Origin: Stegostoma tigrinum
Lineage: Eukaryota
Direction: 5' to 3'
Assembly (NCBI RefSeq): GCF_030684315.1
Contig: NC_081388.1
Location: 23,233,015 to 23,297,014, forward strand
Length of the DNA stretch: 64,000 nt
Under the pieces are notes generated by a model. It searched no databases. It was not told the origin of the DNA and saw only the letters and a program-made list of their open reading frames with translations. Numbering within the stretch: the first letter of the stretch is position 1; each line of letters begins with the position of its first letter. Positions 54 through 49,013 of the stretch are shown piece after piece. The position numbers were made by a program, and so were the translations under genes.

Positions 54-1378
54 AAGATAGATAAAGAACTGGTTTAATCATAGAAAACAGAGACTAGTGG
101 TGGAAAGGTGTTTTTTTGATTGGAGGTCTGTAGCTGGCGATATTCTGCAGGGATGAGTACTGGGACCCTTGCTTTTTGTAATATATATAAATGATTTGGG
201 CGAAAATGTAGATGGCCTGATTAGTAAGTTTGCAGATGACACAAAGGTTGGGGTGTGTGGATAATGAGGAAGATTGACAGACGATGCAGGATATAGGCAG
301 GATGGAGACTTGGACAGTGAAATGACCGCATTTAATCCAGATAAATGAAAAGTGATGTACTTAGGAAGCTTTAATGCAGGAGGGAAGTATACAATAAATG
401 GCAGAAACCTTAGTAGTATTAAAATACAGAAGAATCTAGGCATATAGGTCCACACTTCCCTGAAAGTGGCAACACAAGTGGATACGGTGGTCAGAAATTC
501 ATATGACATGCTTGCCTTCATTGGTCAGGGCAAAGAGTATAAAAATTGGCAAGTCATGCTGCAAATGTATAAAATTTTAATTAGACCTCATTTGGAATAT
601 TGTGCACTGTTCTGGTCAGCACACTATCAGAAGGATGTGGAGGCTTTGGAGAGTGTACAGAAATGGTTTATCAGGATGAAGTTGCAGACTAGCTCGCCGA
701 GCCGGTGTGTTTGGTTGCAGACATTTTGTCACCCTGCTCGGTAACATCGCCAGTGCACCTCCATTGAATTCCAGTGAACTTCACCGGACGTGCACTGACA
801 ATGTCACCTAGCAAGGTGATGAAATGTCTGAAATTAAACGCATTGGCTCGGTGAGCAAATCTACAGCCTCATCCACAACCCAAGCTACAAATCTTCTCAA
901 AAGGTTTATCAGGATGTTGCCTAGCTTGGAGGATATTAGCCATAAGGAGAGATTGGACAAAGTTGGTTTGTTTTCACTTGGTATTGAAGGATGAGAGGTG
1001 GCCCAACTGAAGTTTACAAAATTATGAAACGCATGGATTGAATGGATAGTTGGAGTTTTTTTTCCAGGGTAAAAATGTCAATTACTGTGGGCATAGGTTT
1101 AAGGTAAAAGGAGTCAAGTTTAAAGGAACTGTGAGAGGCAAGTTTTTTTACACAGAGGATATTAAGTGTGTGGAATACACTTCAAGATGAGGTGGTAGAG
1201 ATCAGTCCAATAGCAATGTTTAAGAGGCATCTTCACAGATACATGAATAGGCAGGGAATAGAGGGATATGGACTGTGTAGAGGCAGAAGAGTATTAGTTT
1301 AGAAAATCATCATGTGTCAGTGCAGGCTTGGTGGCCAAAGTGCCTCTTCCTATGCTGTACTGTGTTTTGTTTCTTTCC
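54..1378 (+). mobile_element. CR1 LINE 3' fragment
   Basis: SKFADDTK, IRPHLEYCALFWS, and a CR1 3' tail. Confidence 0.9.
679..902. mobile_element. Fold-back mini-insertion, hammerhead family C
   Basis: Inverted arms ~691-758 / ~790-857 with decayed CTGACGA-T-GTCACC..GGTGAC-GAAACGTC on both strands. TSD ggtttatcaggatg at 665-678 / 903-916, inside a CR1. Confidence 0.8.
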
Positions 1379-1559
1379 AGACTAATACTTGCTAGGAAAT
1401 AATTAACTGGGTAGGCTTGTACCCTCTGTGATTTAGTACTATGGGTGTCCCTAAGCCCTGAAGGCTGAGTGGTATAAGAAAACAGCTCATCAGTACCTTC
1501 TCCATGGTAGTTTGGGATGAGCAATTAATACTGGTCAAGCCAGCAATGGCCACATCTCT

Positions 1560-1950
1560 TGAATGATTAGAAAGAAAGGTTAGAGATGACTTGATTGAAA
1601 CATGCAAGATCCTGAGAGGACTTAACAGTGTATGTGGAAAGGATGTTGCCTGTGTGGGAGAAGCTTGAATGGGGAGGTCATTGTTTAAAAATAAGGGTCA
1701 ATCATTTAAGGTAGAGAGCAGGAAAATTTCTTTTTTTCTGTCTTAGAGGGTTATGAATCTTTGGAATTCTCTTCCTCAGAAAGAAGAAGAGGCAAAATCT
1801 TTGGAGGTTTTAAAGCAAAGACTCTTGATTAGCAAAAGGGTGAAAAGTTATCAGGAATGTACAGACATGTGGAGTTGAGGTTACAATCAAATCAGCCATG
1901 AATTTCTTCAATGGTGCAGCAGGCTCAGGTGGTCTATTCCTATTATTAAT
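1560..1950 (+). mobile_element. CR1 LINE short 3' fragment
   Basis: gatgacttgattgaaacatgcaagatcctg (DLIETxKIL) and a CR1-type 3' UTR. Confidence 0.65.
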
Positions 1951-1951
1951 C

Positions 1952-2168
1952 ATAAACAGAAGTTGTTGGGAAAGCTCAGCATCAGTGAAGCAAAAAAATC
2001 AGAGTTAATGTTTTGGGTCCGATGACCCTTCCTCAGAATTTCTGTGATAACAAGATGTAGAGCTGGATGTACACAGCAGGCAAAGTTCTCCAGCATCTGC
2101 AGTTTCTATTATCTCAGAATTTCTGTTTTTGTTTCTGATTTATGGCATCCGCAGTTCTTTTGGTTTTT
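1952..2168. mobile_element. Family B hammerhead-bearing terminal fragment with a nested family A piece (~2046-2112)
   Basis: Minus strand reads CTGAGGA-A-GGGTC-atcg-GACCC-aAAACATT. Repeat ctcagaatttctgt at 2032-2045 / 2113-2126. Confidence 0.7.
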
Positions 2169-2830
2169 ACTCTATTCATAACTTGTATGTAATTGACAGG
2201 TCTTGTTACAACAACTGATCAGAACTACAAAGTATTTATAGACAGCTTTTAGTTTTAATTCCAAAATATGCTTTTTAAGAAGAAGTGCGACAAAAACAAA
2301 AGCTAATGTAATTCAGTGAGTGACAAAATCTTCTTTGATGTCCATTACATATCGTCCCTATAAAGTGTTAGGGAAACTTCAAACAGGGAGGGACTTAGGA
2401 AGAAAAGATAACAAATGTGCTGAATATCGCCCTGTCTCAGGCAAATGTCAATCTTCCAGCTTTATGTGTTTAACCTTCCAGGAATATATGATTAAAAAGG
2501 GTTAAAAACTGACTACAACACTTGGCTGTATGCGGTATTGGCTGGGCGACCTAATGTATGGACTAGAGTGCTGTGAGGACCATACCCTTGAGAACAGCAT
2601 TATAAACATCCCTGAACTGGAGGTAAAACAAAAGGAAAAACGCTCTTTTACTCTGAATGCTGGAATTCAGTGGATGTCAAATGGAATCAGAACAACAGAA
2701 CTTTCAACAACCTGCAGGACCAAGAATCACAAAATCGACTGCTGAACTGCCAACATCAACACTACTGGTGAAATCCAATGATGACAACAACATCCCCCTA
2801 TCTGCTATTCACAAATGATTCATAGACTGA

Positions 2831-3057
2831 GAGATAATGGGAACTGTAGATGCTGGAGAATCCAAGATAACAAAGTGTGAAGCTGGATGAACACAGCAGG
2901 CCAAGCAGCATCTCAGGAGCACAAAAGCTGATGTTTCGGGCCTAGACCCTTCATCAGAGACTCTGACGAAGGGCCTAGGCCCGAAACGTCAGCCTTTGTG
3001 CTCCTGAGATGCTGCTTGGCCTGCTGTGTTCATCCAGCTACACACTTTGTTATCTTG
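2831..3057. mobile_element. Fold-back Penelope-terminus mini-insertion with two head-to-head hammerheads (family A)
   Basis: Near-perfect ~200-bp palindrome centred at ~2960. TSD gattcatagactga at 2817-2830 / 3058-3071. Confidence 0.92.
2963..2990 (+). ncRNA. Minimal type I hammerhead ribozyme motif
   Basis: CTGACGA-A-GGGCC-TA-GGCCC-GAAAC-GTC, core intact. An inverted copy lies at 2930-2957 on the minus strand. Confidence 0.75.
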
Positions 3058-4058
3058 GATTCATAGACTGATCTGTGTTATTTCTTAACTTTAATCTTTT
3101 TGGACTTAGTGCTTGTTTCTACTGTATGAATGTTTGTTGGACTACTATTTCTATTCACATTTAACAATTAATAAACTTGCTCAATTTGTTAATTCAGGAC
3201 AGCCTTGTTAAGTTAACTGGAGAAGTAGAATAGGGAAGGACCTGGCATCCTGGATGTGGTGTGAGATGGTGGGAACAGTCAGTCAGTCAAAACAAGGAGC
3301 CTAAAGAGCAGAGTCCATTCTGCCCAAATGTCTATTTCAGCTGTTGGTTGGCAGAGTCCTTATAGGGCTTTGAGTTCACCCAGAGGAAATAGTCAGCTAA
3401 GCCTGCAAGTTCAGCTGTGTCCCAAAGTATGGCAAGCCCAAAATTGACATGAATTGATATTCAATAAATAGTGAACTCAAAAATACCTTGCAGTCTTTTC
3501 CACAATAAAGAAATATCCCTAATTTCTGAGTGACTATCAAACTGTAAGCCAACAGGAGGCATGCCAGTTGTAGCTGTCTGACTGAGTTCATCTCAACAAA
3601 TAATGATGATGCACACAAGTAAAGTGAAATGTTTACAAATGAAATTTTAATTTGAAAAACGCTGTGTCAACTTTGTGGTTTCAATAAATCTTATGTTAAT
3701 TGCAGCAACATTGTGATTGTGTTGAGCAACCCATTTGTCCTGGAAGCTCTTCAATAGGAAACCCATTACCTGCTGAATTATAAGTCGATGGCAGATTAAA
3801 TCTGTGAGAATCTTTCCTGATTACGTATTAAATTTAATTGAAATTGCATGGGAAACGTCAAAAAGCAAGAGGTTGCAAGTGGCACCCCTTAATTGTACAT
3901 TACTACATTTTTCATTGTATAGGTCTCACCTGCCCAAGAACTGGTCCTAACGTCTCACAAATTGGAAGCTCTCCCTCCTTCACCATTCTTCAGCCATGTA
4001 TTCATTCACTGCATCCTCTTACTTCTAACACATTGCATTGGGCATAATCCTGAGGTTA

Positions 4059-5986
4059 ACAAAGTGTGGAGCGGGATGAACACAGCAGGCCAAGCAGCAT
4101 CTCAGGAGCACAAAAGCTGATGTTTCAGGCCTAGACCCTTCATCAGAGAGGGGGATGGGGAGAGGGAACTGGAATAAATAGGGAGAGGGGGACTGAAGAT
4201 GGAGAGAAAAGAAGATAGGTGGAGAGGAGAGTATAGGTGGGGAGGTAGGGAGGAGGGGATAGGTCAGTCCGGGGAAGACGGATAGGTCAAAGAGGCAGGA
4301 TGAGGTAGTAGGTAGGAAATGGAGGTGCGGCTTGAGGTGGGAGGAAGGGATTGGTGAGAGGAAGAACAGGTTAGGGAAGCGGAGACAGGCTGGGCTGGTT
4401 TTGGGATGCAGTGGGGGGAGGGGAAGAACTGGGCTGGTTTTGGGATGGGTTGGGGGAAGGGGAGATTTTGAAGCTTGTGAAGACCACATTGATACCATTG
4501 GGCTGCAGGGTTCCCAAGCAGAATATGAGTTGCTGTTCTTGCAACCTTCGGGTGGCATCATTGTGGCACTGCAGGAGGCCCATGATGGACATGTCGTCTG
4601 AGGAATGGGAGGGGGAGTTAAAATGGTTCGCGACTGGGAGGTGCAGTTGTTTAATGCGAACCGAGCGGAGGTGTTCTGCAGGAGACGCGGTCAAGGGTGT
4701 TCTTGATCACTGTGGGGGGAAAGTTGCGGTGCTTGAAGAACGTGGACATCTGGGATTTGCGGGAGTGGAATGCCACATCCTGGGAGCAGATGCGGCGGAG
4801 GCAGAGGAATTGGGAATAGGGGATGGAATTTTTGCAGGAGGGTGGGTGAGAGGAGGTGTATTCTAGGTAGTCTCCCGCATTTCCCGCAACACATCCCTCA
4901 CACCCTGCCCCCGCCATAACCGCCTCAAGAGGATTCCCCTCGACCTCACATACCACCCCACCAACCTCCGGATACAATGCATCATCCTCTGACACTTCCG
5001 CCACCTATAATCCGACCCTACCACCCAAGCCATTTTTCCATCCCCATTCTTGTCTGCCTTCCGAAGAGACCACTCTCTCCACGACTTCCTTGTCAGCTCC
5101 ACACTCCCCTCCAACCCCACCACACCCGACACCTTCCCCTGCAACTGCAGGAAGTACTACACTTGCCCCCACACCACCTCCCTCACCCCCATCCCAGGCC
5201 CCAAGATGACCTTCCATATTAAGCAGATGTTCACCTGCACATCTGCCAATGTGGTATACTGCATCCATTGTACCCGGTGTGGCTTCCTCTACATTGGGGA
5301 AACCAAGCGGAGGCTTGTGGACCGCTTTGCAGAACACCTCCGCTCAGTTCACAATAAACAACTGCACCTCCCAGTCGCGAACCATTTCAACTCCCCCTCC
5401 CATTCTTTAGATGACATGTCCTTCATGGGCCTCCTGCAGTGCCACAATGATGCCACCCGAAGGTAGCAGGAACAGCAACTCATATTCCGCTTGGGAACCC
5501 TGCAGCCCAATGGCATCAATGTGGACTTCACAAGCTTCAAAATCTCCCCTTCCCCTAACCCATCCCAAAACCAGTCCAGTTCTTCCCTTCCACCCACTGC
5601 ATCCCAAAACCAGCCCAGCCTGTCTCTGCCTCCCTAACCTGTTCTTCCTCTCACCCATCCCTTCCTCCTCCCTCAAGCCGCACCTCCATTTCCTACCTAA
5701 TACCTCATCCCGCCTCCTTGACCTATCCGTCTTCCCTGGACTGACCTATCCCCTCCCTACCTCCCCACCTATACTCTCCTCTCTACCTATCTTCTTTTGT
5801 CTCCATCTTCAGTCCCCCTCTCTCCCTATTTATTCCAGAACCCTCTCCCCATCCCCCTCTCTGATGAAGGGTCTAGGCCTGAAACGTCAGCTTTTGTGCT
5901 CCTGAGATGCTGCTTGGCCTGCTGTGTTCATCCAGCCTCACATTTTATTATCTTGGATTCTCCAGCATCTGCAGCTCCCATTATCT
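4059..5986. mobile_element. Rearranged Penelope-like insertion with inverted arms (minus arm ~4059-4870, plus arm ~4871-5986)
   Basis: GIY-YIG C-terminal coding and terminal repeat in both orientations. TSD ataatcctgaggtta at 4044-4058 / 5987-6001. Confidence 0.92.
5861..5888 (+). ncRNA. Minimal type I hammerhead ribozyme motif
   Basis: CTGATGA-A-GGGTC-TA-GGCCT-GAAAC-GTC. The inverted partner is at 4119-4146 on the minus strand. Confidence 0.75.
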
Positions 5987-6418
5987 ATAATCCTGAGGTT
6001 ACTGGCTTTGAAGTCTTGGTTTTTAAATTCATTCCTAATTCTACTTTCAAAATAATTTCTCCCTTCTTATCTATGTTGTTGGTGGTGATATACAGCCATG
6101 TCTTCTGGCTGTTCATCCGTTCCCAATAAGAATATCCTGCAGCTGCTCAGTGACATTCTTGACCCTGGATTTAGGGACACAGTAAATCATGCTGGAGTGG
6201 TATCTTTGGCTGTGGAATCGCTGAAACATCTTGCCATTCATTACCCAGCAGCTGCTGGAAGGAATTGGTAACAGCACAACCAAAAATCTCCAGCGTAGCA
6301 GTAGTGCGATAGACCAGAATAACTCTCCTCCATATCCAGTCAAATGATTTTCTGCTTTAATAAGATGTTTAATGAAATGCTCTGATAACATGAATCTCGT
6401 ACTCACTGTAATATACAA

Positions 6419-6580
6419 CCCAAATTGTACAGTACACTGATGCCCATTCACTTGATGCTCACTGCAAAACGCATCCCAAACAGTACAGCGCTCTGATACC
6501 CATACACCTGGCACCCATCATAACACATCCCAAACCACACAGTGGTCTGATACTCATATCTGCAATGCCCACTGTAACAC
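6419..6580. repeat. Degenerate minisatellite, three units of ~54-56 bp
   Basis: Repeated cccaaa..acag....ctgat(g/a)c.cat..aacac frame. Confidence 0.6.
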
Positions 6581-7126
6581 TCACCGCAGTCTCTATTAGG
6601 TATCTGCGTAGCCCCAGAAATTCATTCCTAAATTACACCATTTTACATCTCTTTTTCTCTCTACAATTGTTAACATCCGTTTTGTCATTTGCACAGTACC
6701 TCTACCCCATCTATTGTCTTAACCCCCCCTCCTCTGCCTCTGTCAAAAGTATAAATAAACAGCATGTTTTAACCCTTTTCAGTTCTGAAGAAGTTATACA
6801 GACTTAACATGTTAATTCTGTTTCTCACTTCACAGATTTTGCCAGATTGGCATTCCCTGTGTTGGTTTGTTTCAAGACTGCATTTTATTTTGCTTTATTC
6901 AGATTTACAGCATTTGTGGTAATTTGGTTTAAATTACGCACCAATTAACATTTATTTTTATCACAAAAAGGAAACAGAAAGAATGCCTTGGATGGTGGAG
7001 TACCATAAGTTTGTGGTTCCTGTTGTCACCTATTTTTGCAGAAGTGGTGTACTTCATTTACTGTTAGATTGTAGTCCAAGCAATCTTACAATAGGTTTAT
7101 CTGTAAACTGATTCCTTATTCATGTG

Positions 7127-7301
7127 ATAGTTGGAACTGCAGATGCTGGAGAATCTGAGATAACAAGGTGTAGAGCTGGATGAACACAGCAGGCCAAGCA
7201 GCACCAGAGGAGCAGGAAGGTCTAGGCCCGGGGCATTGGCCTTCCTGCTCCTCTGGTGCTGCCTGGCCTGCTGTGTGCATCCAGCTCTACGCCTTGTTAT
7301 C
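7127..7301. mobile_element. Fold-back Penelope-terminus mini-insertion, variant subfamily, hammerhead core lost
   Basis: Inverted arms gataacaaggtgtagagctggatgaacac / gtgtgcatccagctctacgccttgttatc, with a flanking repeat ctt(a/g)ttcatgtg. Confidence 0.8.
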
Positions 7302-9329: not shown

Positions 9330-11248
9330 TTCTAGGCGACTTAAAACAGACGAAGCTTTGGAAGAACATCGGGGAAGTAGGCTAAAAGGAGTCTTGAAAT
9401 ATCTTTAGCAAACAGGGTTAAGGAAAATCCCAAAGCCTTTTATTTGTACATAAGGAGCAAGAGAGTAACTAGAGAAAGGGTTGGCCCACTCAAGGACAAA
9501 GGAAGGAAGTTATGTGAGGAGTCAGAGAAAATGACTGAGATTCTTAATGCATACTTTGTATCAGTATTCACTGAGGAGGGGGTCATGATGCATGTTGAGG
9601 TTAGGGATAGACGTTTGATTACTCTAGATCAAGTCAGCATAAGAAGAGGGAAGTGTTGGGTATTCTAAAAGGCATTAGGGTGGACAAGTCCCCTGGTCTG
9701 GATGGGATCTATCCCAGGTTACTGCGGGAAGTAAGAGAGGAAGTAACTTGGGGCCTTAACAGATAATCTTTGCAGCATTCTTGAGCATGGGTGAGGTTCC
9801 AGAGGACTGGAGAATTGCTAATGTTGTCCTCTTGTTTAAGAAGGGTAGCAAGGATAATCCAGGTAATTATCGACCGGTGAGCCTGACATCAGTGGCGGGG
9901 AAGCTGCTGGAGAAGATACTGAGGGATAGGATCTATTTATGTTTGGAAGAAAATGTTCTTATTAGTGATAGGCAGCATGGTTTTGTGCAGGAAAGGTCAT
10001 GTCTTACCAACTTGATAGAATTCTTTGAGGACGTGACAAAGTTGATAGATGAGGGAGGGGCTGTATATGTCATAAGCATGGATTTCAGTAAGGCATTTGA
10101 TTAGGTTCCCCATGGTAGGCTGGTGGAGAAAGTGAAGTCACTGGGGCCCAGGCACTAACCACTAGTTAGATGGATAGAGAACTGGCTGGGTAACATGATA
10201 CAGAAAATCGTAGTGGAAGGGAGTTTCTCAGAATGGAGAACTGTGACCAGTGATGTTCCACAGGGATCCGTGCTGGGACCAATGTTGTCTGTGATATGCA
10301 TTAACAACCTGGAGGAAGGTATAGATGGTCTGATTAGCAAGTTTGCAGATGACACTAAGATTGGTGAAGTAGCAGATAGTGAAGGGGATTGCCGGAGAAT
10401 GCAGCAGAATATAAATAGATTGGAGAGTTGGGCAGAGAAATGGCAGATGGGGTTCAACCCAGGCAAATGCGAGGTGATGTATTTTGGAAGATCCAATTCA
10501 AGAGCGAACTATGTGGTAAATGGAAAAGCCCTGGGGAAAATTGATACACAGAGAGATCTGTGTGTTCAGGTCTATTGTACCCTGAAGGTGGCAACGCAGG
10601 TCGATAAAGTGGTCAAGAGGCATACGGCATGCTTTCATTCATCAGACCGGGTATTGAGTACAAGAGTTGGTAGGTCATGTTGCAGCTGTATAGGACTTTG
10701 GTTTGACCACATTTGAATACTGCGTGCAGTTCTGGTCACCACATTACAAAAGAGTGTGGATGCTTTGGAGAGGGTGCAGAGGAGGTTCACCAGGATGTTG
10801 CCTGGTATGGAGGGTGCTAGCTTTGAAGAGAGGTTAGGTAGATTAGGATTATTTACGTTAGAAATTAGAAGGTTGAGGGGGGACTTGATTGCGGGCTACA
10901 AAATCATGAGAGGTATAGACAGGGTGGAGAGCAAGAAGCTTTTTTTCCCAGAGTGGGGGACTCAATTACTAGGGGTCATGAGTTCAAGGTGAGAGGGAAA
11001 AAGTTTAAGGGAGATATACATGGAAGGGTGGTGGGTGCCTGGAACACGTTGCTAGTGGAGGTGGTCGAGGCGGGCACGATAGTATCATTTGAGATGTATC
11101 TTGGCAGGTACATGAATGGGCAGGGAACAGAGGGATACAGATCCTTGGAAAATAGGTGACAGGTTTAGATAGAGAATCTGGGCTGGTGCAGACTTGGTGC
11201 GCCAAAGGGCCTGTTCCTGTGCTGTAATTTTCCTTGTTCTTTGTTCTT
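9330..11248 (+). mobile_element. CR1 LINE 3' fragment (RT)
   Basis: PEDWRIANVV..NYRPVSLTS, VPQGSVLGP, KFADDTK, tail. Confidence 0.93.
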
Positions 11249-14131: not shown

Positions 14132-14344
14132 AGATAACAAAGTGTGGAGCTGGATGAACACAGCAGGCCAAACAGCATCTTACAAGCACAAAAGCTGACG
14201 TTTCGGGCCTAGACCCTCTGATGAAGAGTCTAGGCCTGAAATGTCAGCTTTTGTGCTCCTAAGATGCTGCTTGGCCTGCTGTGTTCATCCAGCTCCACAC
14301 TTTGTTATCTTGGATTCTCCAGCATCTGCAGTTCCCATTATCTC
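14132..14344. mobile_element. Fold-back Penelope-terminus mini-insertion (family A)
   Basis: Palindrome. TSD agagcaat(a/g)attatg at 14117-14131 / 14345-14359. Confidence 0.9.
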
Positions 14345-14819: not shown

Positions 14820-15846
14820 GAGTTAAAGAGTCCTACAGCACGGAGACGGGCCCTTTGGCCCAAACTGGTCCGTGCCGACCAAAACGTCCATCCACACTAA
14901 CCCCATTTCTCTGCACTTGGCCGATATTCTTCTAAACCTTTCGTACCCATGTATTTGTCCAAATGCCTTTTAAATGTTGTTAATATATCCTCCTCAACCA
15001 CTTCCGCTGGCAGCTCATTCCATATGCGCACCACCCTCTGTGTAGAAAAGTTACCCCTCAGGTTCCCCTGTATTCTTTCCCCTCTTACCTTAAACTGATG
15101 CCCTGTCGACCTCGATTCCCAAATCCTGGGAAACAAGACTGAGTGCATTCAACCTATCCATGCTCACATGTTCTTATACACTTCTATCAGATCCCACCTC
15201 AGTCTCCCACATTCTAGAGAAAAATCTATTACCTTGTTCAATCTCGCCCTATATCTCAGACCCTTGAGTCCTGGGAACATCCTTATAAATTTCTTCTGCA
15301 CTCTTTCTAGTTTAATAACATCCTTCCTATAGCAAGGTGACCAAAACTGAACACAATACTCCAAGTGTGGCCTCACTGATGTCATGTACAACTGCATTAT
15401 AACTTCCTAACGTCTATATTTAATATCTTGACTGATGTAGGCCTGTGTGCCAAAAACCTTCTTTACTGCTCTGTCTTCCTGTGACCCAACTTTCAGAGAA
15501 CCGTGCACTTGGACTCCCAGGTCCCTCTGTTCCACTACACTCCTTAAGGCCTTACCATTCACCATGAAACTCCTACCTTGATTTGACTTTCCAAAATGCA
15601 ACACTTCACATTTATCTATATTAAACTCCATTTGCCATTTCTCGGCCCACTTCCCTAGCTGATTAAGACCCTGCTGCAATTTCCGATAACCTTCTTCACT
15701 GTTCATGATACTGCCTATTTTTGTGTCATCAGCAAACTTTCTAATCATATCTTGTACACTCTCATTCAAATTATTGATATTGATAACCAACAGTAATAGG
15801 CCCAGCACTGACCCCTGAGGCACGCCACTAGTCACAGGCCTCCAAG
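14820..15846 (-). mobile_element. CR1 LINE 3' fragment, nested
   Basis: VTSGVPQGSVLG, KFADDTK, VRPHLEYCVQFWSP. Confidence 0.93.
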
Positions 15847-17031
15847 GTTGGTTGAAAGAACATACAAGCAAGTTTAAAGAAAAACCATAAAAGAGGGCAG
15901 TGTCAGCAATAGCCCCGAAGACTGGGATAAATTCTGAATTCAACAAAGGAGATTAAAAAGAAATTAAAGACAAAGAAAGATAAACAATGGGGGCAAACTA
16001 GCAAGGAATTTAAAAACTGACAATAAGAGCTTCTTTAAATATAATAAAAGGAAGAGCATGGACAAAGTGAACTTTGGCCCCTTCGAAAATGAATCTGGGG
16101 AAATGGTAATGGCCAACAAGGAAATGGCAGAAGACCTAAACAGATATTTTGAATTAGTCTTTATGGTAGAAGATGCTTCGAATGCCCCATTAATACTAAG
16201 GAATAGTGGCGAGGAATTAATTATCATCACCATCACCAGAGAAGTTGTATTAGACAAATGGCAAAAGGCAGATAAATCCCTGGCCCTCATGACTTACATC
16301 CTGGAATCCTAAAAGATGTAGCTACAGAAGTAGTGGATGCATTGGATGTAATTTGCCAAAATTCCTTGGATTCTGAAGAAGTACCAGCAGATTGGAAAAC
16401 TGCCAATGTGACAACTTTCTTCAAAAAGGGAGGAAGCCAAAAAGCAGGTTATCAAAGGCTGAATAACCTATCATGCATTGTTAGAAAACAATTGGAATCA
16501 ATTCTTAAGGATGTAATAGCAGAACAACTGGAAAATCATAATCTAATCAAGCAAAGTCAGCATGGCTTCATGAAAGGGAAATAATGTCAGACTAATTTAT
16601 GAGAATTTTTTGAGGAAGACTCAGCGTGGATAGAAGGGAGCCAGTAAATGTGTATTATTTGGAATTCCAGAAGGCGTTCGTCAAGGTACCTCACAAAAGA
16701 TTAAGTCATAAAGAAAGACCACAGTGTTGGAGGTACTACACTGGCTGAATAGAGTATTGACTAATGGGCAGGAACCATCAAGTGGGGAGAAGGGATTCTT
16801 TTTTCAAGTTGGTGATGTGTGGACAGTGGGGTCCCACATTAATCAATCCTGTGGCCATAATTGTTCACAATTTTCATCAATGACTTAGAGGAAAGAAGCA
16901 AATGTAGTGTAGCCACATTTGCAGGCATCACAAAAATAGGTGGAAAGGTAGGTTGCGAGAGGGATGCCAGCAGTTTACAGAGAAATATTGATAGGTTAAA
17001 TAAGTGTACAAGAAGTTGGCTAATGGAGTAT

Positions 17032-18684: not shown

Positions 18685-18743
18685 GGTATAATGTGGGAAA
18701 ATATGAAGTTGTTCATTTTGGAAGGCAATACAATATAGCAGAG

Positions 18744-18887
18744 ATAATAAAATGTGAGGCTGGAAGAACATAGCAGGCCCAGCAGCATCTCAGGAGCTCA
18801 GGAGATGCTGCTGGGCCTGCTGTGTTCATCCAGCCTCACATTTTATTATCTTGGATTCTCCAGCATCTGCAGTCCCCATTATCACTG
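18744..18887. mobile_element. Fold-back Penelope-terminus mini-insertion without hammerhead core
   Basis: Palindrome centred ~18797. TSD atacaatatagcagag at 18728-18743 / 18888-18903. Confidence 0.88.
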
Positions 18888-19974
18888 ATACAATATAGCA
18901 GAGTATTACTGCAGTGATTGGAACCAGCTAGATCTTGTTTATTGTGAGATCCTTGATTAGGGTTTTTATTACCCAGGCCAATCAGGAAGGTCCTGGCTAA
19001 CAAATTCAACCAGGAGATGAGAATCTCCTCAGTTCATGGGACTAACTCCGAGCTGGCTGGCTGGCCGGCCACAGTCTATGATATGGTGCACATGGAAATA
19101 AAGGCTGAGGGGATACCGAACTCTGTGGCAGTGGAAGATAACAGGATGTGCCGGAAGAACATTTGCTTGCAATAGTCATCTTAGAATTAGGGTAGGCATT
19201 TTTGGCATTATGCCTTTGTTTGGGAAACTAGTTCGATTCTCCTGTCGAAGACTGGGTCAAGTGAATGGAAAGAATGCATCATATTTTCTGGGCAGCTGAC
19301 ATTGGGGTAGATGAAATTCAACAATTAATCCTCTGATTGCTTGTGGACAACCCAGTATTTTCGGCTATAAGGGGCTTAACTTTCCCAGAGGTACCAGACA
19401 CTAAAACATTCTAAAAGTTGACGGAGTTAGTTAAGGAATACTACAATGCCAAACCTATAATCCTGAGATGATATCAGTTTTATTCAGCTGTTAGAGAATC
19501 GGGAGAATTTGTATTGGGATTTTTGACAAGGTTAAGATGTCTGGCAGAAGCATGTAATTTTGGTTCACCCTGGATGAGATGCTGAGAGACCATTTGTTAT
19601 GTGGCATTAATGACATTATCCTGCAAAAGCAACTACTAGCAGAATCCCGAATGGACTTGCAACAGGCACTACACTGGCTTTGTCATTGGAAAATGTGGCA
19701 AGTGGGGCATGGGAGTTACAGGGCATCCCAATGGAAGTGGACATCCTCACCTGTCCGACTGATTTTGGGGAACACCACTTGAGTGTAGGCAATTGCAGAG
19801 CTTCATGCAGGGCATATCCTGACACTTGACCAGCCCACAGCGAAACCCAACAAGAAGGCTGATCCTCAGTTAAGTGTCTAGAATATTTTTCAGGATCTGG
19901 GCCAGCAAGCCATTGCGGTTGCTACTGGTATGTAGATGCAAGATAGCACAAGAGTCCTACAAAGTCTGACTTGA

Positions 19975-20207: not shown

Positions 20208-20209
20208 AT

Positions 20210-27750: not shown

Positions 27751-27767
27751 GATGAGTTGTTTATCCT

Positions 27768-30156: not shown

Positions 30157-31101
30157 GAGATAACAAAGTGTGGGGCTGGATGAACACAGCAGGCCAAGCA
30201 GCATCTTAGGAGCACAAAAGCTGACGTTTCAGGCCTAGACCCTTCATCAGAAATGGGGGATGGGGAGAGGGTTCTGAAATAAATAGGGAGAGAGGGGGAG
30301 GTGGATCGAAGATGGATAGAGGAGCAGATAGGTGGAGAGGAGATAGACAAGTTAAAGAGGTGGGGATGGAGCCAGTAGAGGTGAGTGTAGGTGGGGAGGT
30401 AGGGAAGGGATAGGTCAATCTGGGGAAGACGGACAGGTCAAGGGGGTGGGATGAGGTTAGTAAGTAGGAAATGGGGGTGCAGCTTGAGGTGGGAGGAGAG
30501 GATACGTAAGAGGAAGAACAGGATAGGAAGGCGGGGACGAGCTGGACTGGTTTTGGGATGCAGTGGGGGAAGGGGAGATTTTGAAACTGGTGAAGTCCAC
30601 ATTGATACCATTGGGCTGCAGGGTTCCCAAGCGGAATATGAGTTGCTGTTCCTGCAACCTTCGGGTGGCCTCATTGTGGCACTGCAGGAGGCCCATGATG
30701 GACATGTCGTCTGAGGAATGGGAGGGGGAGTGGAAATGGTTTGCGACTGGGAGGTGCAGTTGTTTATTGTGAACCGAGCGTAGGTGTTCTGCAAAGCGGT
30801 CCCCAAGCCTCCGCTTGGTTTCCCCAATGTAGAGGAGGTCACAACGAGTACAGCGGATGCAGTATACCACATTGGCAGATGTGCAGGTGAACATCTGCTT
30901 CATGTAGAAAGTCTTCTTGAGGCCTGGGATGGGGGTGAGGGAGGTGGTGTGGGGGCAGGTGTAGCACTTCCTGCGGTTGCAGGGGCAAGTTCTGGGTGTG
31001 GTGGGGCTGGTGGGGAGTGTGGAGCAGACAAGGGAGTCACGGAGAGAGTGGTCCCACCGGAAAGCATACAAGGGTGGGGATGGAAAAATGTCTTTGGTGG
31101 T
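30157..31101 (-). mobile_element. Penelope-like 3' fragment (GIY-YIG + terminal repeat) in the last intron
   Basis: ORF 30457-31143 carries CNRRKCYTC and VVYCIRC..YIGETKRRLGDRFAEH, with the same terminal sequence as the 53830 copy. Confidence 0.92.
30223..30250 (-). ncRNA. Minimal type I hammerhead motif, sense to the ICAM-like pre-mRNA
   Basis: Minus strand reads CTGATGA-A-GGGTC-TA-GGCCT-GAAAC-GTC. Confidence 0.72.
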
Positions 31102-31364
31102 TGAGAGAAAGCTTGGGACTAGACCAAATGCTTTCGAGGACATGAAAGGAAGTGAGAATGGAAATTACAGAGGCAATTTCAAGAATTGTTCAATCTTGCC
31201 TGGAGTTGAAGTCAGAGCTGGAGGAATTTAGAATTGGAAATCTTCTCCAAAAACGTTGTAAAGATTGAACCAGCAATAGCAGACCAATCAGTTAAACTTC
31301 AAAAATCAGAACACTCCGAAAAACAATTACTCACACGAGAGTCTGAACGGATGTTTTTAGGGGT

Positions 31365-31458
31365 ATCAACATGTGGAGCTGGATGAACACAGTGGGCCAA
31401 GCAGCATCAGAGGAGCAGGAAAGCTGACGTTTCAGGCCTAGACCCTCCTTCAGAAAAT
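31365..31458 (-). mobile_element. Short Penelope terminal fragment (variant subfamily) with mutated hammerhead
   Basis: Minus strand reads ctgaagga-gggtctaggcct-gaaacgtc-agctttcctgctcctctgatgctgc. Confidence 0.75.
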
Positions 31459-33049: not shown

Positions 33050-34220
33050 CTGTAATACAGACAAGAAATTCACTTCATTTTAATTTGCTGCGGTGTATTT
33101 TAGTTTTTAATGGACAGTGTGGAAAAGGGAGCAATGCAGGTATTGGACAATACATCACCCCAGGGATTTACCACATTCACCCATAGTGAGGAAACTGGAG
33201 GCATCTGCAGTCATCTCACCGCTTTTATTTTCAAATTAATTCTTGCTACCTTTCAGGCACTTCAAATACTAAGTCTGTTTCTTGTGGGCCAGTTCCTCTG
33301 CGTGTCAATGCAGTCCTGATTTAGCTTCACTGTGTTCTTACTTGCATCCGTCTATAACATCCCAACTGAGGTTGGAATTTCAGTGTTCGTGACCTAGGGA
33401 TAAATCTGTGAAGTTTTCTTTGCCCTCCCTGTATCATGAGATTTTCTGAACTTTTTATGATCCCATCTCCTGGTCACTGAGTTATATTTAATGCAGCTCA
33501 GTGAAATTTCTTTCAAAATACCTGCCACTGTCAGGAAACTGCTGGTTCCCCTGTGGCTACCACAATCATCCAGGGCTCCTGTCAGCAGAAAGAGTGCACG
33601 TTAGGGCACTTTAAACAGTGGAATGTCTGCCATGTCAGAAAATCCTCCAATTTGAGCTCTCCACTTCAAAGAAGGAGATTCAACATTTATGGGAATTGGT
33701 AAGGACATGGAGCTACAGTCAAAGATTAGTCGTTGAATAGCAGACCAGGCTCAAGGTGCCCAATAGTGTATTCCAACACCAGTTCCTTCTGTTTCTCTGC
33801 CTTGCAATGACTTTATTGACCTTTTCAAATCAGTTTTTGCACATCCTGCAGCTGTAGAACATTTACAATTACACCATGAACTGGTCATAGAGTCATACAG
33901 CAAGGAAACAGGACAGGTTTCCTTAACTGAATTACTCCCATTTGCCTGCATTTGGTCCGTATCCCTCTCAGCCTTTCGTGTTCTAATGTCTTACAAATGT
34001 TGTATCTGTAGCCTTCTCTACCACTGAAAAGGTTGCATGTTTGCGTCATTGTCCAGGATGTGGAATGTTTATCATCACACTTTGTATTAATGACACAAGG
34101 GGAACTAACGACAACTTTTGTCAACGTAATTTCCCATTGCTAATTCTTAACAAATTATAGATATTTAAACCATGGTATTCTCTAAATGAGGAGAGTGTTT
34201 CTTGTGCAGCTGGAACTTAC

Positions 34221-34535
34221 AGTAGGTTTGCAGAGTGACAGAGGAGTTTGTGATTGACATTGTGGTGTTAGAGCCCAAGTCCACTTCAGCCAAGCAGGTG
34301 TACTCCTGTCCATCATCTGATAGACTTGCAGTGAAATTGAAGACATTTCTCAACCTGTTATCTTCATCCGGAAGACCTTGGTTTTCTGCAGAATTTCTCT
34401 GAACAATCTCACTCCCTCTTATCCATGTGAGAATGAGTTTGTTGTTTGGGTAGACTCTTGGTCCGATGCACTGCAGACTATATCTCCTGTTAACCTCCAG
34501 CACTTCAGGGAGTGATATAATGTTTATCTCTCGAT
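34221..34535 (-). CDS. ICAM/VCAM-like gene, Ig domain 2 exon
   Basis: Acceptor ttctcctttaacag, donor T|GTAAGT, 315 nt, phase 1-1. YSLQCIGPRVYP..LILTWIRG..DDGQEYTCLAEVDL is a typical ICAM/VCAM D2. Confidence 0.93.
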
Positions 34536-35182
34536 CTGTTAAAGGAGAATCACAGTTAATAGGATTCACAGAAATAGTGTGTTTAAAGTTTCAGGCCTCC
34601 ACTTGGTGCAGGTCAGGAATGGAAGTGGACTAACCAGTGTACATCTTCCCAACATTTTGTCAACTCCAGCATGTAGCCTGAACTATGTATGCACCCAGTA
34701 GGAATCCCCAACCCACCTCTGCAGCTACCAATTAGACTCATTCATTCCCTTGTTAAGGGGAATAAGGGAGGCTGTTTGAGATTTTCCATTCAGTCTCCAG
34801 TTTCCCAATACAACAGAGACTGATGAACTGCCTGGAAGCAGACCAGGTTACCAGTACTCAAGGCAGCTTGTGGGCCTTCATGCCTGCGTAAGTGCAAGTC
34901 CCGTTGAAGACTGCCATATGGAAAGGTTCTCCCTGCAATGGTGTTGGATGAGCTGCTTTCTCTTGTTTTTTCCTCCTTTTTTTGAAAATTGCTGAAGCTG
35001 TAGAAGTGAGGAAGTGGCTATGTAGTGGTACTATCACTGACCTGACAATGCTCTGGGGACATGAATTAAATCCCACCACGGCAGCTGGTGCAACTAAATT
35101 CAATTGAAATCTTGTCTAATGACGGTGATTATGAAGTAACTGATATTGATTGTCAGAAAAACCTGTCTGATTTACTAATCTG

Positions 35183-35444
35183 AGATAACAAAGTGTGGAG
35201 CTGATGAACACAGCAGGCCAAGCAGCATCTCAGGAGCACAAAAGCTGACGTTTCAGGCCTAGACCCTTCATCAGAGAGCTCTCTGAGTTTCGGGCCTAGA
35301 CCCTTCATCAGAGAGCTCTCTGATGAAGGGTCTAGGCCCGAAACTCAGCTTTTGTGGTCCTGAGATGCTGCTTGGCCTGCTGTGTTCATCCAGCTCCACA
35401 CTTTGTTATCTTGGATTCTCCAGCATCTGCAGTTCCCATTATCA
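35183..35444. mobile_element. Double fold-back Penelope-terminus mini-insertion with three hammerhead motifs
   Basis: Contains a perfect 66-bp palindrome at 35283-35348. TSD ctgatttact(a/c)atctg at 35167-35182 / 35445-35460. Confidence 0.9.
35247..35274 (-). ncRNA. Minimal type I hammerhead motif, sense to the ICAM-like pre-mRNA
   Basis: Intact core, with a second tandem minus-strand motif at ~35285-35311 lacking one G. Confidence 0.7.
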
Positions 35445-35477
35445 CTGATTTACTCATCTGGTTAGGAAAAGAAATCT

Positions 35478-41980: not shown

Positions 41981-42499
41981 TTGTCAAATCTGTTATCAAT
42001 CTGTCTCTGTACTGCAGGATGCTAATGGTGCTATCATGTAGAATTGTGATTAGTGAAGGATTGAGCTAATAGCTAATCTTGAAAGGATTTTGCATTAATT
42101 CACAGAACTAGATGTTACCAACATACTTCTCCATCCCCAACAACTATAGTCTCACCCTGTGTCTTGTTTTAGGGATTCAACCAATTCTTGCCAGTTGCTG
42201 CAAACATTGAACATAATTCATAATACATTCAACAGATGATGGGAAATTCAATGTTTGTATTGATGAGTAAGCTTTGCTTGGTCAGGAAGGAGAGATCACA
42301 TCTGAAGTGAGAGAGCCCAAGTGAGTTTATAGTTTGGGGATTTTGGAGGAAGCATGAGAATTTGGTATTAAGAGGAAGAGGTGTTTTTTGTTTGCTTTTT
42401 TGGTTTATAATTTTAAGATTTTATTAAAGAGTAAAAATTGGAGCAGAGGTTTGGATGCCAAGCACAAAGCAAAGTGACATCACTAAGATACATCAGGGA

Positions 42500-45003: not shown

Positions 45004-46200
45004 TCAGAAAGTACAATAGATTGTTGGCATAATTTCAAGGAGGTTAGGGCATTTGATCTCCCAAAATGCATCACTTCTCTGGATTAAATACCATCTGCCA
45101 TTTTTCCACCTAACTTTCCATTTGATCGATGTCCTATTGCCTCCTTTGTATTTTTCCTCATTGTCCACGACTTCATTAAGTTTTATGTCATGTACAAACT
45201 TACTGATCAAACCACTGACATTTTCATCTAAATCATTTATATGTGTTATAATTAACTGAGGTCCTGCCTGCTCTCAATCCTTATGGAACACCACTAGTCA
45301 CAGGCCTCTATAGAAGAATAGCCGTCTAGAAATACTCCCTGCCTTTTGTGGCCAAACCAATTTTGTAACAAACAGCCAATTTTGTATCTAACTGCCGATT
45401 CACCATGGATTCCGTGTGATTTGATTTTCTGAACCAGCATACCATGAGAGACTTTGTAAAACGCTTTTGTAAAGTCGATGTAGCTAACAGCTGCTGCTTT
45501 ATCCTCATCAATAATTTCTGTCACTTCCTCAAAAACTCAATCAAGTTTGTGAGATGTGCATAAAGCCATACTGGCTATGCCTCATAAGCCCATTCTCTTC
45601 CAAATGCAAGTACATCCTGTCCCTAAGCGACTTCTCCAATAATTTCCCTACTGCTAATGTAAAGATCACCAGATTATAATTTACTGAATTATCCCTGTTG
45701 TCCTTCTTAAATAAAGGAGCAGCATTGGCTATTCTCTGGTTTTCTGTGACCTTGCCTGTGGCTAAAGATGAGACAAGGATCTTTCTCAAGGCCCCAGCAA
45801 TGTCCTCCCTTGCCTCCTTCTGTATCCTGGCATAGATACCATCAGGCCCTGGGGACTTACCTACTTTAATGTTTTTCAAGACACCCAGCACCTTTCCTTT
45901 TTAATATTGACATGGCTTATAGTATCAACAAAGCCCGCTGTCCACTTAAGATTATCCAGGTCTTTCTCCTTGGTGAATATTGATATGAAGTACTAACTAA
46001 GGCATCACCCACTTCTGGCTCAATGCATTAATTATCTCCTTTGTCCTTGAGTGGATCTACCCTTTCCCTAGTCACCGTTTTGCTCCTAATATGCATATAA
46101 CATGCCTTGAGGTTCTCCTTAATCCTACTTGCCAAGCATGTTTCATGGCCCTTTCTAGCCCTCCAAATTTCAATTTAAAATTATTTTCTGCTCCTTTATA
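45004..46200 (-). mobile_element. CR1 LINE fragment
   Basis: KSPGPDGIYARI, IDFTKAFYKVSH. Confidence 0.88.
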
Positions 46201-46392
46201 CTGCTCAATAACTCAGCTGTGATCAGGATGAAGCTGCATTTGAGTGTTAATCTGTCTTTCTCCACTCTGAAGCATTGTTCACTTTTAAACCAGTATTAAT
46301 CTACTCTAAATCAGACAGATTCCACTTATCATCATCAATGCTATCCCAAGCCGCTTTATTTTTCTAATGCCAGTTCTAGACTTTTTACTTAC

Positions 46393-46714
46393 TGTATACT
46401 GTGACAGACATTTTCTTCTCCTTCAGCTGAAAATTGTCCAATTTACACATCACAGAACATGCTAGTGTAAAATCCCAATTCTGGACACTTTGGAAATAAT
46501 CATTGTACCAAGTACTGCTATTTGTTCTGGTAGGGTTTACCCCTGGTTTATATTCCACATTCATTGATGGTTTTTGACATGTTGTGCTGCAGTTCATCTC
46601 AATGGAGTCACCAAATTCCACTGCTGGAGGAGTTACATCGATTGAAACTTCAAATCCGGTTACAGTTGCTGCTAAGAAAACAAAGTACAGTAAATACAGA
46701 GACATACGACCCAT
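46393..46714 (-). CDS. ICAM/VCAM-like gene, first coding exon: putative signal peptide + Ig domain 1
   Basis: MGRMSLYLLYFVFLAATVTG|FEV... followed by ICAM-type D1 with CSTTC and CSVMC double-cysteine motifs, ending TVY. Phase-1 donor A|GTAAGT at 46392. The 5' boundary is uncertain (alternative acceptor gives a start at 46671). Confidence 0.85.
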
Positions 46715-47559
46715 TCAAGGCAATGTATTGCATGTAACGCCCTAACATGATAGTACATTTGTAAACTCAGAATTCTTTGACTGCATGCTTTAGGTAGAAG
46801 CAGTCGATCACTTGCTGAAGAGAGGAAGAAGTTGGATAAATATGAGAAGAACCACAACGGAACCAGAGAGAGAAATATGGAAGAGAGACTAGAGAGGAAA
46901 GAAACAGAAGAGGACATTTTTTACTGTAACATTTCACTACATAAAGAGAACAAACTTCAGAGCTGTCTCAATAAGAATGGTTGTCAGAACTATCAGAATG
47001 AATGGTTACCTTTTACCCAGTACTAACTCGATAGATACATGAGCTGCCATAGAGACATGCCCATGTCCAGTGCAAGAAATGCCCTTAAACTTTTTCAACC
47101 CTGGAAATTAACTTTCTAATCCAGGCAACAATTTATTGTTAAGGAACTCCTTTAACATATGTACTTGCTTTGGATCCAGAAGGCCAACACTGCAGGGATT
47201 ATGTTGTTGTACATGCTGCTGAGAAACGTGGATCTCTCAATTTGTCTCCAAGCCCAGACAGTTTCAGATACTGGTGTAACGAAAGACTGTAATGATGGTT
47301 TCCCCATGTTCAAAACAAGTTTGTCTGGTAGTTGATTGATAGTGTGCTGTGTTTTAAACAGCAACGGTTTTATGTTATCTGCAAGTGGCACCCTTTGGTG
47401 TCTCAATATGTGCTATACTGCACCACCCAAAAACAATAAGGACAACTGAATGCATAAACAAAAAAATTGATAGTCTCCTGATAGATCTTTCAACATTAAA
47501 AATGTTAACTTCCAAGGTTTGAAAAGTTTCCAATACATTTCAACATTTTAGAAGGCTCT

Positions 47560-49013
47560 TCAAGTCTTCACATGGTTAGAATTTAAAAACCAAAAAGGAG
47601 TAATTGTATTGCTGGGAGTGTAGTATAGGCCTCCAACAGTCAGACAGAAATAGAAGAGCAGCTATGTAAGCAAATTTCAAAGAAGTGTAGAAGTATTATG
47701 GTAGTGGTGGGGTATTTTGACTTCCTTACACTAACTTGGGTAGACATAGTGTGAAAGATCCAGAGGGAGCAGAATTCTTAAAATGCATTAGGAATTAAGC
47801 CAGCACATAGAAGGTGCTACGAGAGAGAGGGTAGTCCTGGGACATAATTTTAAGAAATGAAGCTGGGCAAGTAGCTGAAGTATCAGTGGAGGAGCACTTT
47901 AGAGCATGGAACATAGAACAATACAGCGCAGAACAGGCCCTTCAGCCCCTGATGTTGTGCCGACCTGTGAACTAGTCTAAGGCCCTCCCCCCCACACTAT
48001 CCCATTATTATCCATATACATTTTGTAGATCATAACTCCCTTTGATACAAGATTGTTATCGAAAAGGACAAGGATGGGCCTGAAATAAAGTTCTTGACTG
48101 CGGGAAGGCTGATTTTAATAAGATCAGACATGACTTAGCTATGGTGGACTGGAAGCATATAGTTTTGTTAAGTTTGTCTCAGAGCAGTCGTATGCATTCA
48201 AGAAGAAAATAGGGAGAGTACATGACCAGTATTTTCCAATAAAGATAAAGTGTAGGACCAACAAATCTAGTGAACCCTGGATATCAAGGGATATGCAGGA
48301 TTGGATTAAGGGGAAAAGGGAGGCTTTTTGTCAATACTGAGGGATCAAAACAGCAGGAGTCCTAGAGGAGTACAGAATGTGCAAGAAGAAATTTTAAAGG
48401 AAATTAGCAGAACAAAGAGAGGGTGTGGCAGGTAAAATAAAGGAAAATCATAAGTTAAAAAAGACCCCGAAAGAACTGTGGATGCTGTAAATCAGGAACA
48501 AAAACAAAATTGCTGGAATAGCTCAGCAGGTCTGGCAGCATCTGTGAAGGAAGAAATAGAGTTAACGTTTCAGGTCCGGTGACCCTTTTTCAGAACTGAT
48601 AAAAGCCACAAGCTATTTTACAAGTACATTAAGGGTAAAAGAATAGCAAGGGAAAGAGCAGGGCCCATTGAGGACCACAGAGGTAAATTGTACGTGGAGT
48701 TGGAGGATATAGGTAGAATTCTGAGTGAATAGTTTGTGTCAGTGTTAATTAGTGAAAGAGACAATGTAATCACCAAGAATGATTGTGAAATAATTTTTAA
48801 AAATCAGCCTGTCCAGTGAGTTCTGCAGGGATCAGTGTTGAGGCTTTGCTGTTTATGGTAAATATAAATGATTTAGACTTAAATGTTGGAGGGTTGATCA
48901 GCAATTTCACAGATGATATGAAAATTAGTTGGTTGTAAATAGAGAGGAAGATAGTGTTAGATTGCAAGAAAAAATAAATAAGCTGGTCAGATGGACTGAC
49001 CAATGGTAAATTG
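47560..49013 (+). mobile_element. Decayed CR1 LINE fragment
   Basis: Endonuclease remnant (YRPP, GxFxFP-like) through RT remnant, with nested short insertions. Confidence 0.8.
48468..48599 (-). mobile_element. Family B hammerhead-bearing terminal fragment (related decayed copies near 6780-6910, 37870-38000, 60299-60361, 62535-62620)
   Basis: Minus strand reads agtt-CTGAAaA-A-GGGTC-accg-GACCT-GAAACGTT-aact, then a shared tail gatgctgccagacctgctgag. Confidence 0.75.

What the first reader, a model, noticed from the sequence alone, without database searches (positions are those of the whole stretch)
679..48599. Three repeat families share the hammerhead core with different, compensating stem II sequences
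Seen: family A is CTGATGA-A-GGGTC-TA-GGCCC-GAAACGTC (5861, 53896). Family B is CTGA(G/A)(G/a)A-A-GGGTC-a(t/c)cg-GACC(C/T)-GAAACGTT with a 4-bp stem I agtt/aact (48564-48597 and ~2005-2036, minus). Family C, reconstructed from its two arms, is CTGACGA-T-GTCACC-tagca(a/g)-GGTGAC-GAAACGTC (795-828). Family C's stem and flanks are unrelated to A and B, yet the catalytic boxes, the one extra base after A9 and the palindromic ACGT replacing stem III are kept. Established: minimal hammerheads lacking stem III can cleave as dimers through that palindrome. Inference: the covariation argues for a selected RNA structure in at least three Penelope lineages.
Basis: partly seen in the sequence, partly recalled or inferred. 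Interest (0 to 1): 0.7.

Follow-up and report, generated by a model that had tools for sequence, protein, structure and literature searches.

The report
Hammerheads of three shark Penelope lineages
The three motifs are mostly decayed copies of the tiny hammerhead RNA that Penelope-type jumping genes are already known to carry in their end repeats, here from two branches of that group in what is likely a shark genome; most short copies were likely made from uncut RNA, and a minority in a sister family begin exactly at the predicted cut, which may record cleavage in living germ cells.

Summary
Real, and a known kind. Families A, B and C are minimal hammerheads in the end repeats (pLTRs) of Penelope-like elements. 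I found parents with RT, GIY-YIG and two direct pLTRs for B (Neptune type, sister to A) and C (Poseidon type). The genome holds 151,965 exact cores (control 76). Corrections: all four B and C copies in the window have broken cores; C's majority stem II is GUUACC/GGUGAC; A and B share the same 5' strand; covariation does not beat shuffles (77 and 87 of 500). Beyond the finding: short copies start about 30 nt after a TATA-like box, not at the cut; in C the ORF's AUG is A9 + extra U + G10.1 (published for anole Poseidon) and its stop lies in loop II; in sister family C2, 19 of 80 fold-back arms start exactly after the predicted cut (null 5%), a possible fossil of cleavage in vivo, with RT stalling as rival. 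The scan noted all of this before, in this genome and others.

The parts
679..902 (.). Family C (Poseidon-type) fold-back insertion: two head-to-head pLTR stubs, one with the 3' tail, inside a CR1-like LINE fragment
665..678 (+). Left copy of the 14-bp target site duplication of the C insertion
   Evidence: repeated at 903-916
903..916 (+). Right copy of the 14-bp target site duplication
795..828 (+). Family C hammerhead core, broken (G8>A, C11.1>U, C15.2>U); ATG at 801-803, TAG in loop II; arm begins at 779, 16 nt upstream
720..753 (-). Family C hammerhead core on the other arm, broken (A6>G, G12>A, C15.2>U)
48564..48593 (-). Family B (Neptune-type) hammerhead core, G8>A; 4-bp stem I AGUU/AACU (48560-48597); solo pLTR stub about 48467-48600
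2007..2036 (-). Family B-like hammerhead core, broken (G12>A, G16.2>A)
5861..5888 (+). Family A hammerhead core in the 3' pLTR of a 5'-truncated element; catalytic boxes intact, stem I only 2 bp
5827..5832 (+). TATA-like box (TATTTA) 34 nt before C3 of the family A hammerhead; predicted pLTR promoter
   Evidence: function inferred
5011..5466 (+). GIY-YIG remnant upstream of the 5861 hammerhead
   Evidence: PF01541 E 8.7e-4, below the curated cut-off
53896..53923 (-). Family A hammerhead core in the 3' pLTR of the longest family A copy in the window
54339..56168 (-). Family A parent remnant: RT (54762-55721), CX4CX2C linker and GIY-YIG region (54339-54761); broken by stops and frameshifts, 5'-truncated
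   Evidence: (RVT_1 E 1.7e-6)
30457..31164 (-). Family A linker + GIY-YIG ORF remnant upstream of the hammerhead at 30223-30250
   Evidence: PF01541 E 3.9e-5, above cut-off
2822..3062 (.). Family A fold-back stub, cores at 2930-2957 (-) and 2963-2990 (+)
35183..35449 (.). Family A fold-back stub with a duplicated core (35247-35274 -, 35287-35311 -, 35320-35344 +)
31426..31453 (-). Core of a further Neptune-type group (A2; CUGAAGA majority, G8-A9 region changed in this copy)

Best explanation
Families A, B and C are minimal type I hammerhead motifs in the end repeats of three Penelope-like retrotransposon lineages (A and B Neptune type, C Poseidon type), and the motif likely sits at the 5' end of the element's RNA, where it is predicted to cut only rarely and with the help of the element's own protein. 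Shown here: parents with RT, GIY-YIG and two direct pLTRs; about 152,000 exact cores; neutral decay of copies; a TATA-like box 33-34 nt (A, B) or 47 nt (C group) before the core; short copies starting about 30 nt after that box; in the C group an in-frame AUG made of A9, the extra U and G10.1, and a stop in loop II of the downstream copy. Inferred: transcription starts 30 nt after the TATA-like box; reverse transcription starts internally in the tail region (as shown for anole Poseidon) and runs off the capped end of uncut RNA, giving the solo and fold-back stubs; the RNA mostly folds into an inactive rod in which the first box pairs across the cut site; when cleavage happens in the C group it would remove the cap and the start codon 28 nt upstream, turning an mRNA into a template only, and in tandem transcripts it would release unit-length RNA. 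Selection on the structure acts on the few active parents, not on the copies.
For: Parents: B loci L127, L129, L134 have two direct hammerhead pLTRs about 3.0-3.1 kb apart (3 of 8 extended loci, a fourth partial), RVT_1 E 3.3e-7 and GIY-YIG E 0.0043; C loci L195-L198 have two direct ones 2.4-2.7 kb apart (4 of 5 loci picked from 30). RT tree: A+B one group 100/100 on a branch of 1.8, C+C2+C3+C4 one group 100/99 among linker-less homologues. Counts. Decay: CpG positions of the A core differ in 19-32% of copies, other core positions in 0-7% (124 hits in 390 kb read plus the window). TATA-like boxes. 5' ends: A 55 of 101 at -4..0, B 20 of 22 at -7..0, C2 9 of 120 at -17 and 1 at -4..0; A 65 of 169 at -4..0 with a downstream anchor; 271 C2 fold-backs turn between -6 and -21, 26 of the first 50 listed at one spacing (counted by hand). 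AUG: 23 of 30 loci, 45% identical over 73 aa to the N-terminus of a trematode protein, E 2e-16. Rod: A -11.4 against -3.6 kcal/mol for the hammerhead-like fold. Literature: PMC4209133, PMC11167929.
Against: No RNA data: start sites and cleavage are inferred from DNA only. Covariation is not above shuffles. Family A, by far the most abundant, has only a 2-bp stem I and at most 4 of 169 arms (3 loci) at the cut, and B has none of 34, so cleavage may be absent in the Neptune-type families. The AUG loci were chosen with a query that begins with that Met. C3 has no stop in loop II, so the stop overlap is not general. No intact ORF was found for B or C; Pfam gave no GIY-YIG hit for the C-group fragments, where the domain rests on the visible motif and on homologues. 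Clade names rest on the linker motif as described in PMC8557442, with no named reference in the tree.
Confidence: 0.8

Rival explanations
1. The motif is an active dimer ribozyme whose cleavage routinely makes the template for insertion.
For: ACGU palindrome kept in all family majorities; an intermolecular ACGU duplex adds about 3 kcal/mol in the model; low dimer activity reported; 19 of 80 C2 fold-back arms start at the first base after the cut.
Against: Most short copies keep the sequence upstream of the cut; C2 fold-backs near the predicted start outnumber those near the cut 271 to 59 (anchors differ in length); anole Poseidon uses uncut RNA in vitro.
Confidence: 0.12
2. The motif no longer cuts in these sharks; it is kept as a promoter/Inr, start-codon or protein-binding hairpin, and the ends at the cut site come from RT stalling at the foot of the stable rod.
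For: Predicted rod pairs through C17 so that its foot falls at the cut position in C2 (unpaired probability 0.04 at C17, 0.46 at the next base); A has a 2-bp stem I; the C core is coding in two frames; eight of nine frog dimer elements did not cleave.
Against: All catalytic positions are kept in both clades although A and B are not coding there; changes in stems I and II between lineages keep pairing (stem II 95-98% paired); no end peak at the foot of the stronger A rod (+30: 1 of 169); the anole homologue does cleave with protein.
Confidence: 0.2
3. The short copies are a separate non-autonomous family (SINE or retrozyme) with its own life cycle.
For: Short stubs dominate; retrozymes are proposed to derive from pLTRs.
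Against: Stubs are colinear with pLTRs of full-length parents, carry the PLE tail on one arm and have unrelated flanks with target duplications; no tandem arrays in the window apart from one 37-bp duplication.
Confidence: 0.07

Closest known systems
Minimal hammerheads (min-HHR) in pLTRs of metazoan Penelope-like elements (Cervera & De la Pena 2014, PMC4209133; parts 1-2 of 4 read, two supplement files searched by term, file 1 not held)
   Same: CUGANGA and GAAA boxes, extra base between 9 and 10.1, G10.1-C11.1, palindromic 15.2-16.2 without helix III, several families per genome, mostly solo copies, found in fish Xena, Poseidon and Neptune.
   Different: No shark in the text read or the files searched; count here (151,965 by a pattern without pairing) exceeds the 4,000 and 9,000 given for coelacanth and frog, by a different descriptor; family A has helix I of 2 bp and helix II of 4 bp, shorter than the 4-5 and 7-8 bp described for schistosome motifs.
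Poseidon element of Anolis carolinensis, PAc (PMC11167929; passages and part 2 of the main text read, supplements not seen)
   Same: [quoted passage not shown]
   Different: The passages read report no RNA reads at the cut site and do not mention a stop codon in loop II or loss of the start codon as a role; here C2 insertions show an end peak at the cut.
Neptune and Penelope/Poseidon clades of EN+ PLEs (PMC8557442; passages read)
   Same: Single ORF RT + C-terminal GIY-YIG with CCHH; CX2-5CxxC linker in A and B, absent in C; direct pLTRs, inverted 5'-truncated copy, tail on one end.
   Different: Neptune against Nematis was not tested with named references.
Adineta vaga Penelope pLTRs (PMC3846280; passages read)
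   Same: Putative TATA box and initiator in the pLTR, pLTR overlapping the first codons of the ORF, head-to-head inverted pLTRs with palindromic junctions and TSDs.
   Different: That paper explains the palindromes by self-priming on an antisense template; here the junctions fall 30 nt after the TATA-like box.

Membership tests
min-HHR of metazoan PLEs | CUGANGA and GAAA catalytic boxes in the family majority | tested here: met
   (A 106, B 78+12, C 81 copies); individual B and C copies in the window fail
min-HHR of metazoan PLEs | One extra base between A9 and G10.1, and G10.1-C11.1 | tested here: met
   (A in A/B, U in C group)
min-HHR of metazoan PLEs | Palindromic ACGU instead of helix III | tested here: met
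min-HHR of metazoan PLEs | Helix I of about 4-5 bp | tested here: inconclusive
   B 4 bp, C 3 bp, C3 5 bp, A only 2 bp; 2 bp is described for the D. virilis variant
min-HHR of metazoan PLEs | Located in both pLTRs of a PLE | tested here: met
   B: L127, L129, L134; C: L195-L198; for A only 3' pLTRs were linked to an ORF
min-HHR of metazoan PLEs | Statistically significant covariation | tested here: not met
   77 of 500 and 87 of 500 shuffles reach the score; small alignments, R-scape not available
min-HHR of metazoan PLEs | Self-cleavage | not testable with these tools
   only indirect: end peak at the cut in C2
EN+ Penelope-like element | RT followed by C-terminal GIY-YIG | tested here: met
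   A; B; C group RVT_1, GIY-YIG by motif and homologues only
Neptune type (A, B) | CX2-5CxxC linker before the endonuclease | tested here: met
   CX4CX2C read in ORFs; criterion
Neptune type (A, B) | Groups with named Neptune RTs rather than Nematis | not tested
   no named reference was available, 21 report only Neptune and Poseidon in the vertebrates sampled
Penelope/Poseidon type (C) | No linker zinc finger; DKG motif; CCHH in the endonuclease | tested here: met
Non-LTR retrozyme | Tandem arrays of hammerhead units | tested here: not met
   (window only): one 37-bp duplication inside a fold-back
Rfam hammerhead families | Match to a covariance model | tested here: not met
   no hammerhead family among 16 matches at E <= 1

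The most novel reading that the evidence does not exclude
The genome records both ends of the element's RNA life: copies that ran off the capped start (TATA + 30, moving with the box between clades) and, in Poseidon-type C2, copies that begin exactly at the hammerhead cut, which would be evidence that a minimal PLE hammerhead cleaves in germ cells. Since the cut lies 28 nt after the AUG that the hammerhead itself spells, and the cut needs the element's protein in the anole homologue, the ribozyme would be a feedback switch by which the protein destroys the start of its own mRNA.
Probability: 0.3. Interest if true: 0.55.

Novelty: new member of a known kind. Interest (0 to 1): 0.22.

Why it matters
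As stated, the finding repeats a 2014 result in another vertebrate and matters little. The role of PLE hammerheads is still open, though: RNA reads at the cut were not found in the anole study. A genome with about 150,000 cores from two clades gives a large natural record of where reverse transcription ended, and it points to simple tests: start sites 30 nt after the TATA-like box, protein-assisted cleavage of C2, and loss of translation after the cut.

Tried and rejected
Rfam scan: no hammerhead model matches; the hits are miRNA hairpin models on fold-backs, all below gathering scores. Pair counts on two small alignments: not above shuffles. Pfam on C-group endonuclease fragments: no hit. The sigma-70 promoter scan does not apply to this genome. 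I first took the AUG inside the hammerhead for new; it is published for PAc. A cut-site peak in A and B was looked for and not found beyond 4 of 169 and 0 of 34 arms. Twelve C2 loci whose ORF follows a splice-acceptor-like sequence share their upstream flank and are best read as one insertion inside a duplicated unit. No intact ORF of B or C turned up among the loci fetched. Literature searches listed no paper on shark PLE hammerheads, on insertion ends at the cut site or on TATA + 30 ends; the library lacks most subscription journals, and unseen supplements of PMC4209133 (file 1), PMC11167929 and the 2026 preprint (one chondrichthyan sampled) may hold shark motifs.
Full report
Setting. The window is part of a 3.2-Gb animal genome, G000. 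I take it for a shark from its size, from a 62% identical piece in a bamboo shark gene model among the homologues and from recall of the repeats; this is inferred. The window is rich in repeats: family A stubs, CR1-like LINE pieces and a Penelope-like RT + GIY-YIG remnant at 54339-56168 on the minus strand.

Observation. The strict core pattern has 10 matches in the window against 1.36 expected, all family A. A relaxed scan finds 14 against 0-2 in 10 shuffles and includes the B copy at 48593 and the C copy at 795. The four B and C copies in the window all carry changes in catalytic positions. The C locus 679-902 is a head-to-head pair of pLTR stubs with a 14-bp target duplication (665-678, 903-916). 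Rfam has no matching hammerhead model.

Families. Gap-free clustering of cores in all DNA fetched up to then (221, 176 and 104 cores of three lengths; 12, 18 and 14 left unclustered) gave majorities for A (106), A2 (52, mixed), B (78 + 12), C (81), C2 (94), C3 (19) and C4 (15). All keep CUGANGA, one extra base, G10.1-C11.1 and GAAACGU. Genome counts of exact cores: 151,965 in all (control 76), 11,264 with U as the extra base (control 10), 6,086 of B length (control 3), 1,218 of C length outside the C2 loop type (control 0). Most of the rest is A and its relatives.

Parents. Upstream of B copies lies an ORF remnant 50-63% identical to the A RT, with RVT_1 (E 3.3e-7) and a weak GIY-YIG hit (E 0.0043). 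Of 8 extended B loci, 3 have two direct hammerhead pLTRs about 3 kb apart, one has a partial upstream copy, two have inverted copies only and two have a single copy. For C, 4 of 5 loci picked from 30 for an upstream copy have two direct hammerheads 2,429-2,726 nt apart. A and B carry a CX4CX2C linker, C does not, which by PMC8557442 (passages) marks Neptune (or Nematis) against Penelope/Poseidon. In an RT tree of 40 rows (19 loci, 21 of 45 homologues chosen by hand for spread) A + B form one group (100/100) on a long branch and C, C2, C3, C4 another (100/99) among linker-less proteins of flatworms, corals and unnamed sources (midpoint root, no named references). All B and C ORFs seen are broken.

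Covariation. Between lineages there are pair-keeping changes: stem II pair 3 is U.G in C and C2, U-A in C3 and C-G in C4; stem I pair 3 is G-C in C and U-A in C2; stem I pair 2 is C-G in A, U.G in A2 and U-A in B. Stem II is 95-98% paired and slid controls are not. But the covariation score is reached by 77 and 87 of 500 shuffles, so it is not significant on these small sets. A and B share the 5' strand of stem II, and C is not alignable to them. The better argument for selection is that two distant clades keep the same core. The copies themselves are not selected: in 124 A-type hits from 40 evenly chosen 10-kb stretches (one read N) plus the window, the four CpG positions of the core, G12 among them, differ in 19-32% of copies and the other core positions in 0-7%.

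Coding overlap in the C group. The frame opened by A9 + extra U + G10.1 runs into the conserved N-terminus of the ORF; 23 of 30 loci found with that peptide have ATG there (selection favours this), and the peptide matches the start of a trematode protein at 45% over 73 aa. The endonuclease frame of the upstream unit ends at TAG in loop II in 5 of 5 C2 loci and in C and C4, but not in 3 C3 loci or the one C5 copy. The start at stem II is published for anole Poseidon, whose hammerhead cuts only with the element's protein, is not needed for insertion in vitro, and left no reads at the cut site (PMC11167929).

Where copies end. Prompted by earlier scan notes, I mapped 5' ends. A TATA-like hexamer lies at -34 in A, -33 in B and -47/-48 in the C group. 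Ends: A 55 of 101 at -4..0, B 20 of 22 at -7..0, C2 9 of 120 (6 loci) at -17 with 1 at -4..0 and most others long. So the peak follows the box by 30 nt and not the ribozyme. 271 C2 fold-backs turn between -6 and -21, 26 of the first 50 listed at one spacing (hand count). A TATA box and initiator in a pLTR were already noted for a rotifer element (PMC3846280).

Ends at the cut. With a downstream anchor, 4 of 169 A arms (3 loci) and 0 of 34 B arms start at the cut. In C2, 59 fold-backs turn near the cut. In the first 40 of them, 19 of 80 arms start at the first base after C17 against 5.2% under a uniform null (P 2e-8 if arms are independent; 14 of 40 loci, both arms in 5), with unrelated flanks; 13 more arms meet in the ACGT palindrome, which microhomology explains. 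This test was prompted by note e1-8654706. The rival is RT stalling: the first box pairs with CGUC to extend stem II into a rod whose foot is at the cut in C2. Against stalling, A has the stronger rod and no peak at its foot.

Mechanism. Most likely a pLTR promoter starts the RNA at or just before the hammerhead; the protein binds the tail region, starts reverse transcription there and often runs off the uncut 5' end, giving stubs and fold-backs; the hammerhead is mostly locked and cuts rarely, with protein help; in the C group a cut would remove cap and AUG. Start sites, cleavage and feedback are inferred; no RNA was examined.

Known and new. The 2026 preprint (parts 1-3 of 5) includes one chondrichthyan. 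PMC6155905 (passages) adds nothing on sharks. The finding is a new member of a known kind; interest 0.22. The end peak at the cut in C2 is the one part that bears on an open question, and it concerns a sister family that is not in the window. The scan's index holds 94 findings with these words in at least 17 genomes and notes on each side result in this genome; they are leads, and the numbers above are my own.

Noticed in passing
L238, L288-L295, L297-L299 (G000 contigs C12, C13, C58, C73, C432, C718): Twelve loci share about 600-700 bp of upstream flank (87-93% identical) ending in a splice-acceptor-like pyrimidine run + AG joined exactly at the ATG of a C2 element that has lost its first catalytic box; four carry a nested LINE. 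Probably one insertion inside a duplicated unit; whether it is spliced into a host transcript is untested.
   Followed up: partly
window 34165-34590 (-): Open frame that resembles an immunoglobulin-type exon of a cell-adhesion gene (resemblance recalled); no Pfam hit at E 0.001.
   Followed up: partly
window 78-1300, 10159-10854, 15407-15952, 57766-59795, 62090-62788: CR1-like LINE remnants (RVT_1 E 1.2e-13 for 10159-10716); the family C insertion sits inside one. The CR1 label is recalled.
   Followed up: no
L207:4323, L208:4062, L212:542, L300, L301: Further hammerhead lineages beyond A, B, C: A2, D, E (Neptune-like flanks) and C2-C5 (Poseidon type); C2 is the youngest and commonest Poseidon type.
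   Followed up: partly
window 35245-35323: 37-bp tandem duplication that repeats the hammerhead core inside a family A fold-back.
   Followed up: no
window 7126-7301, 18742-18894, 61100-61307: Fold-back stubs that score as miRNA hairpins in Rfam below gathering thresholds; they are pLTR inversions.
   Followed up: yes
   Followed up: partly
P0008: A bamboo shark MAP3K7 gene model ends in a Poseidon-type thumb and GIY-YIG piece, either an exonised element or an annotation error.
   Followed up: no
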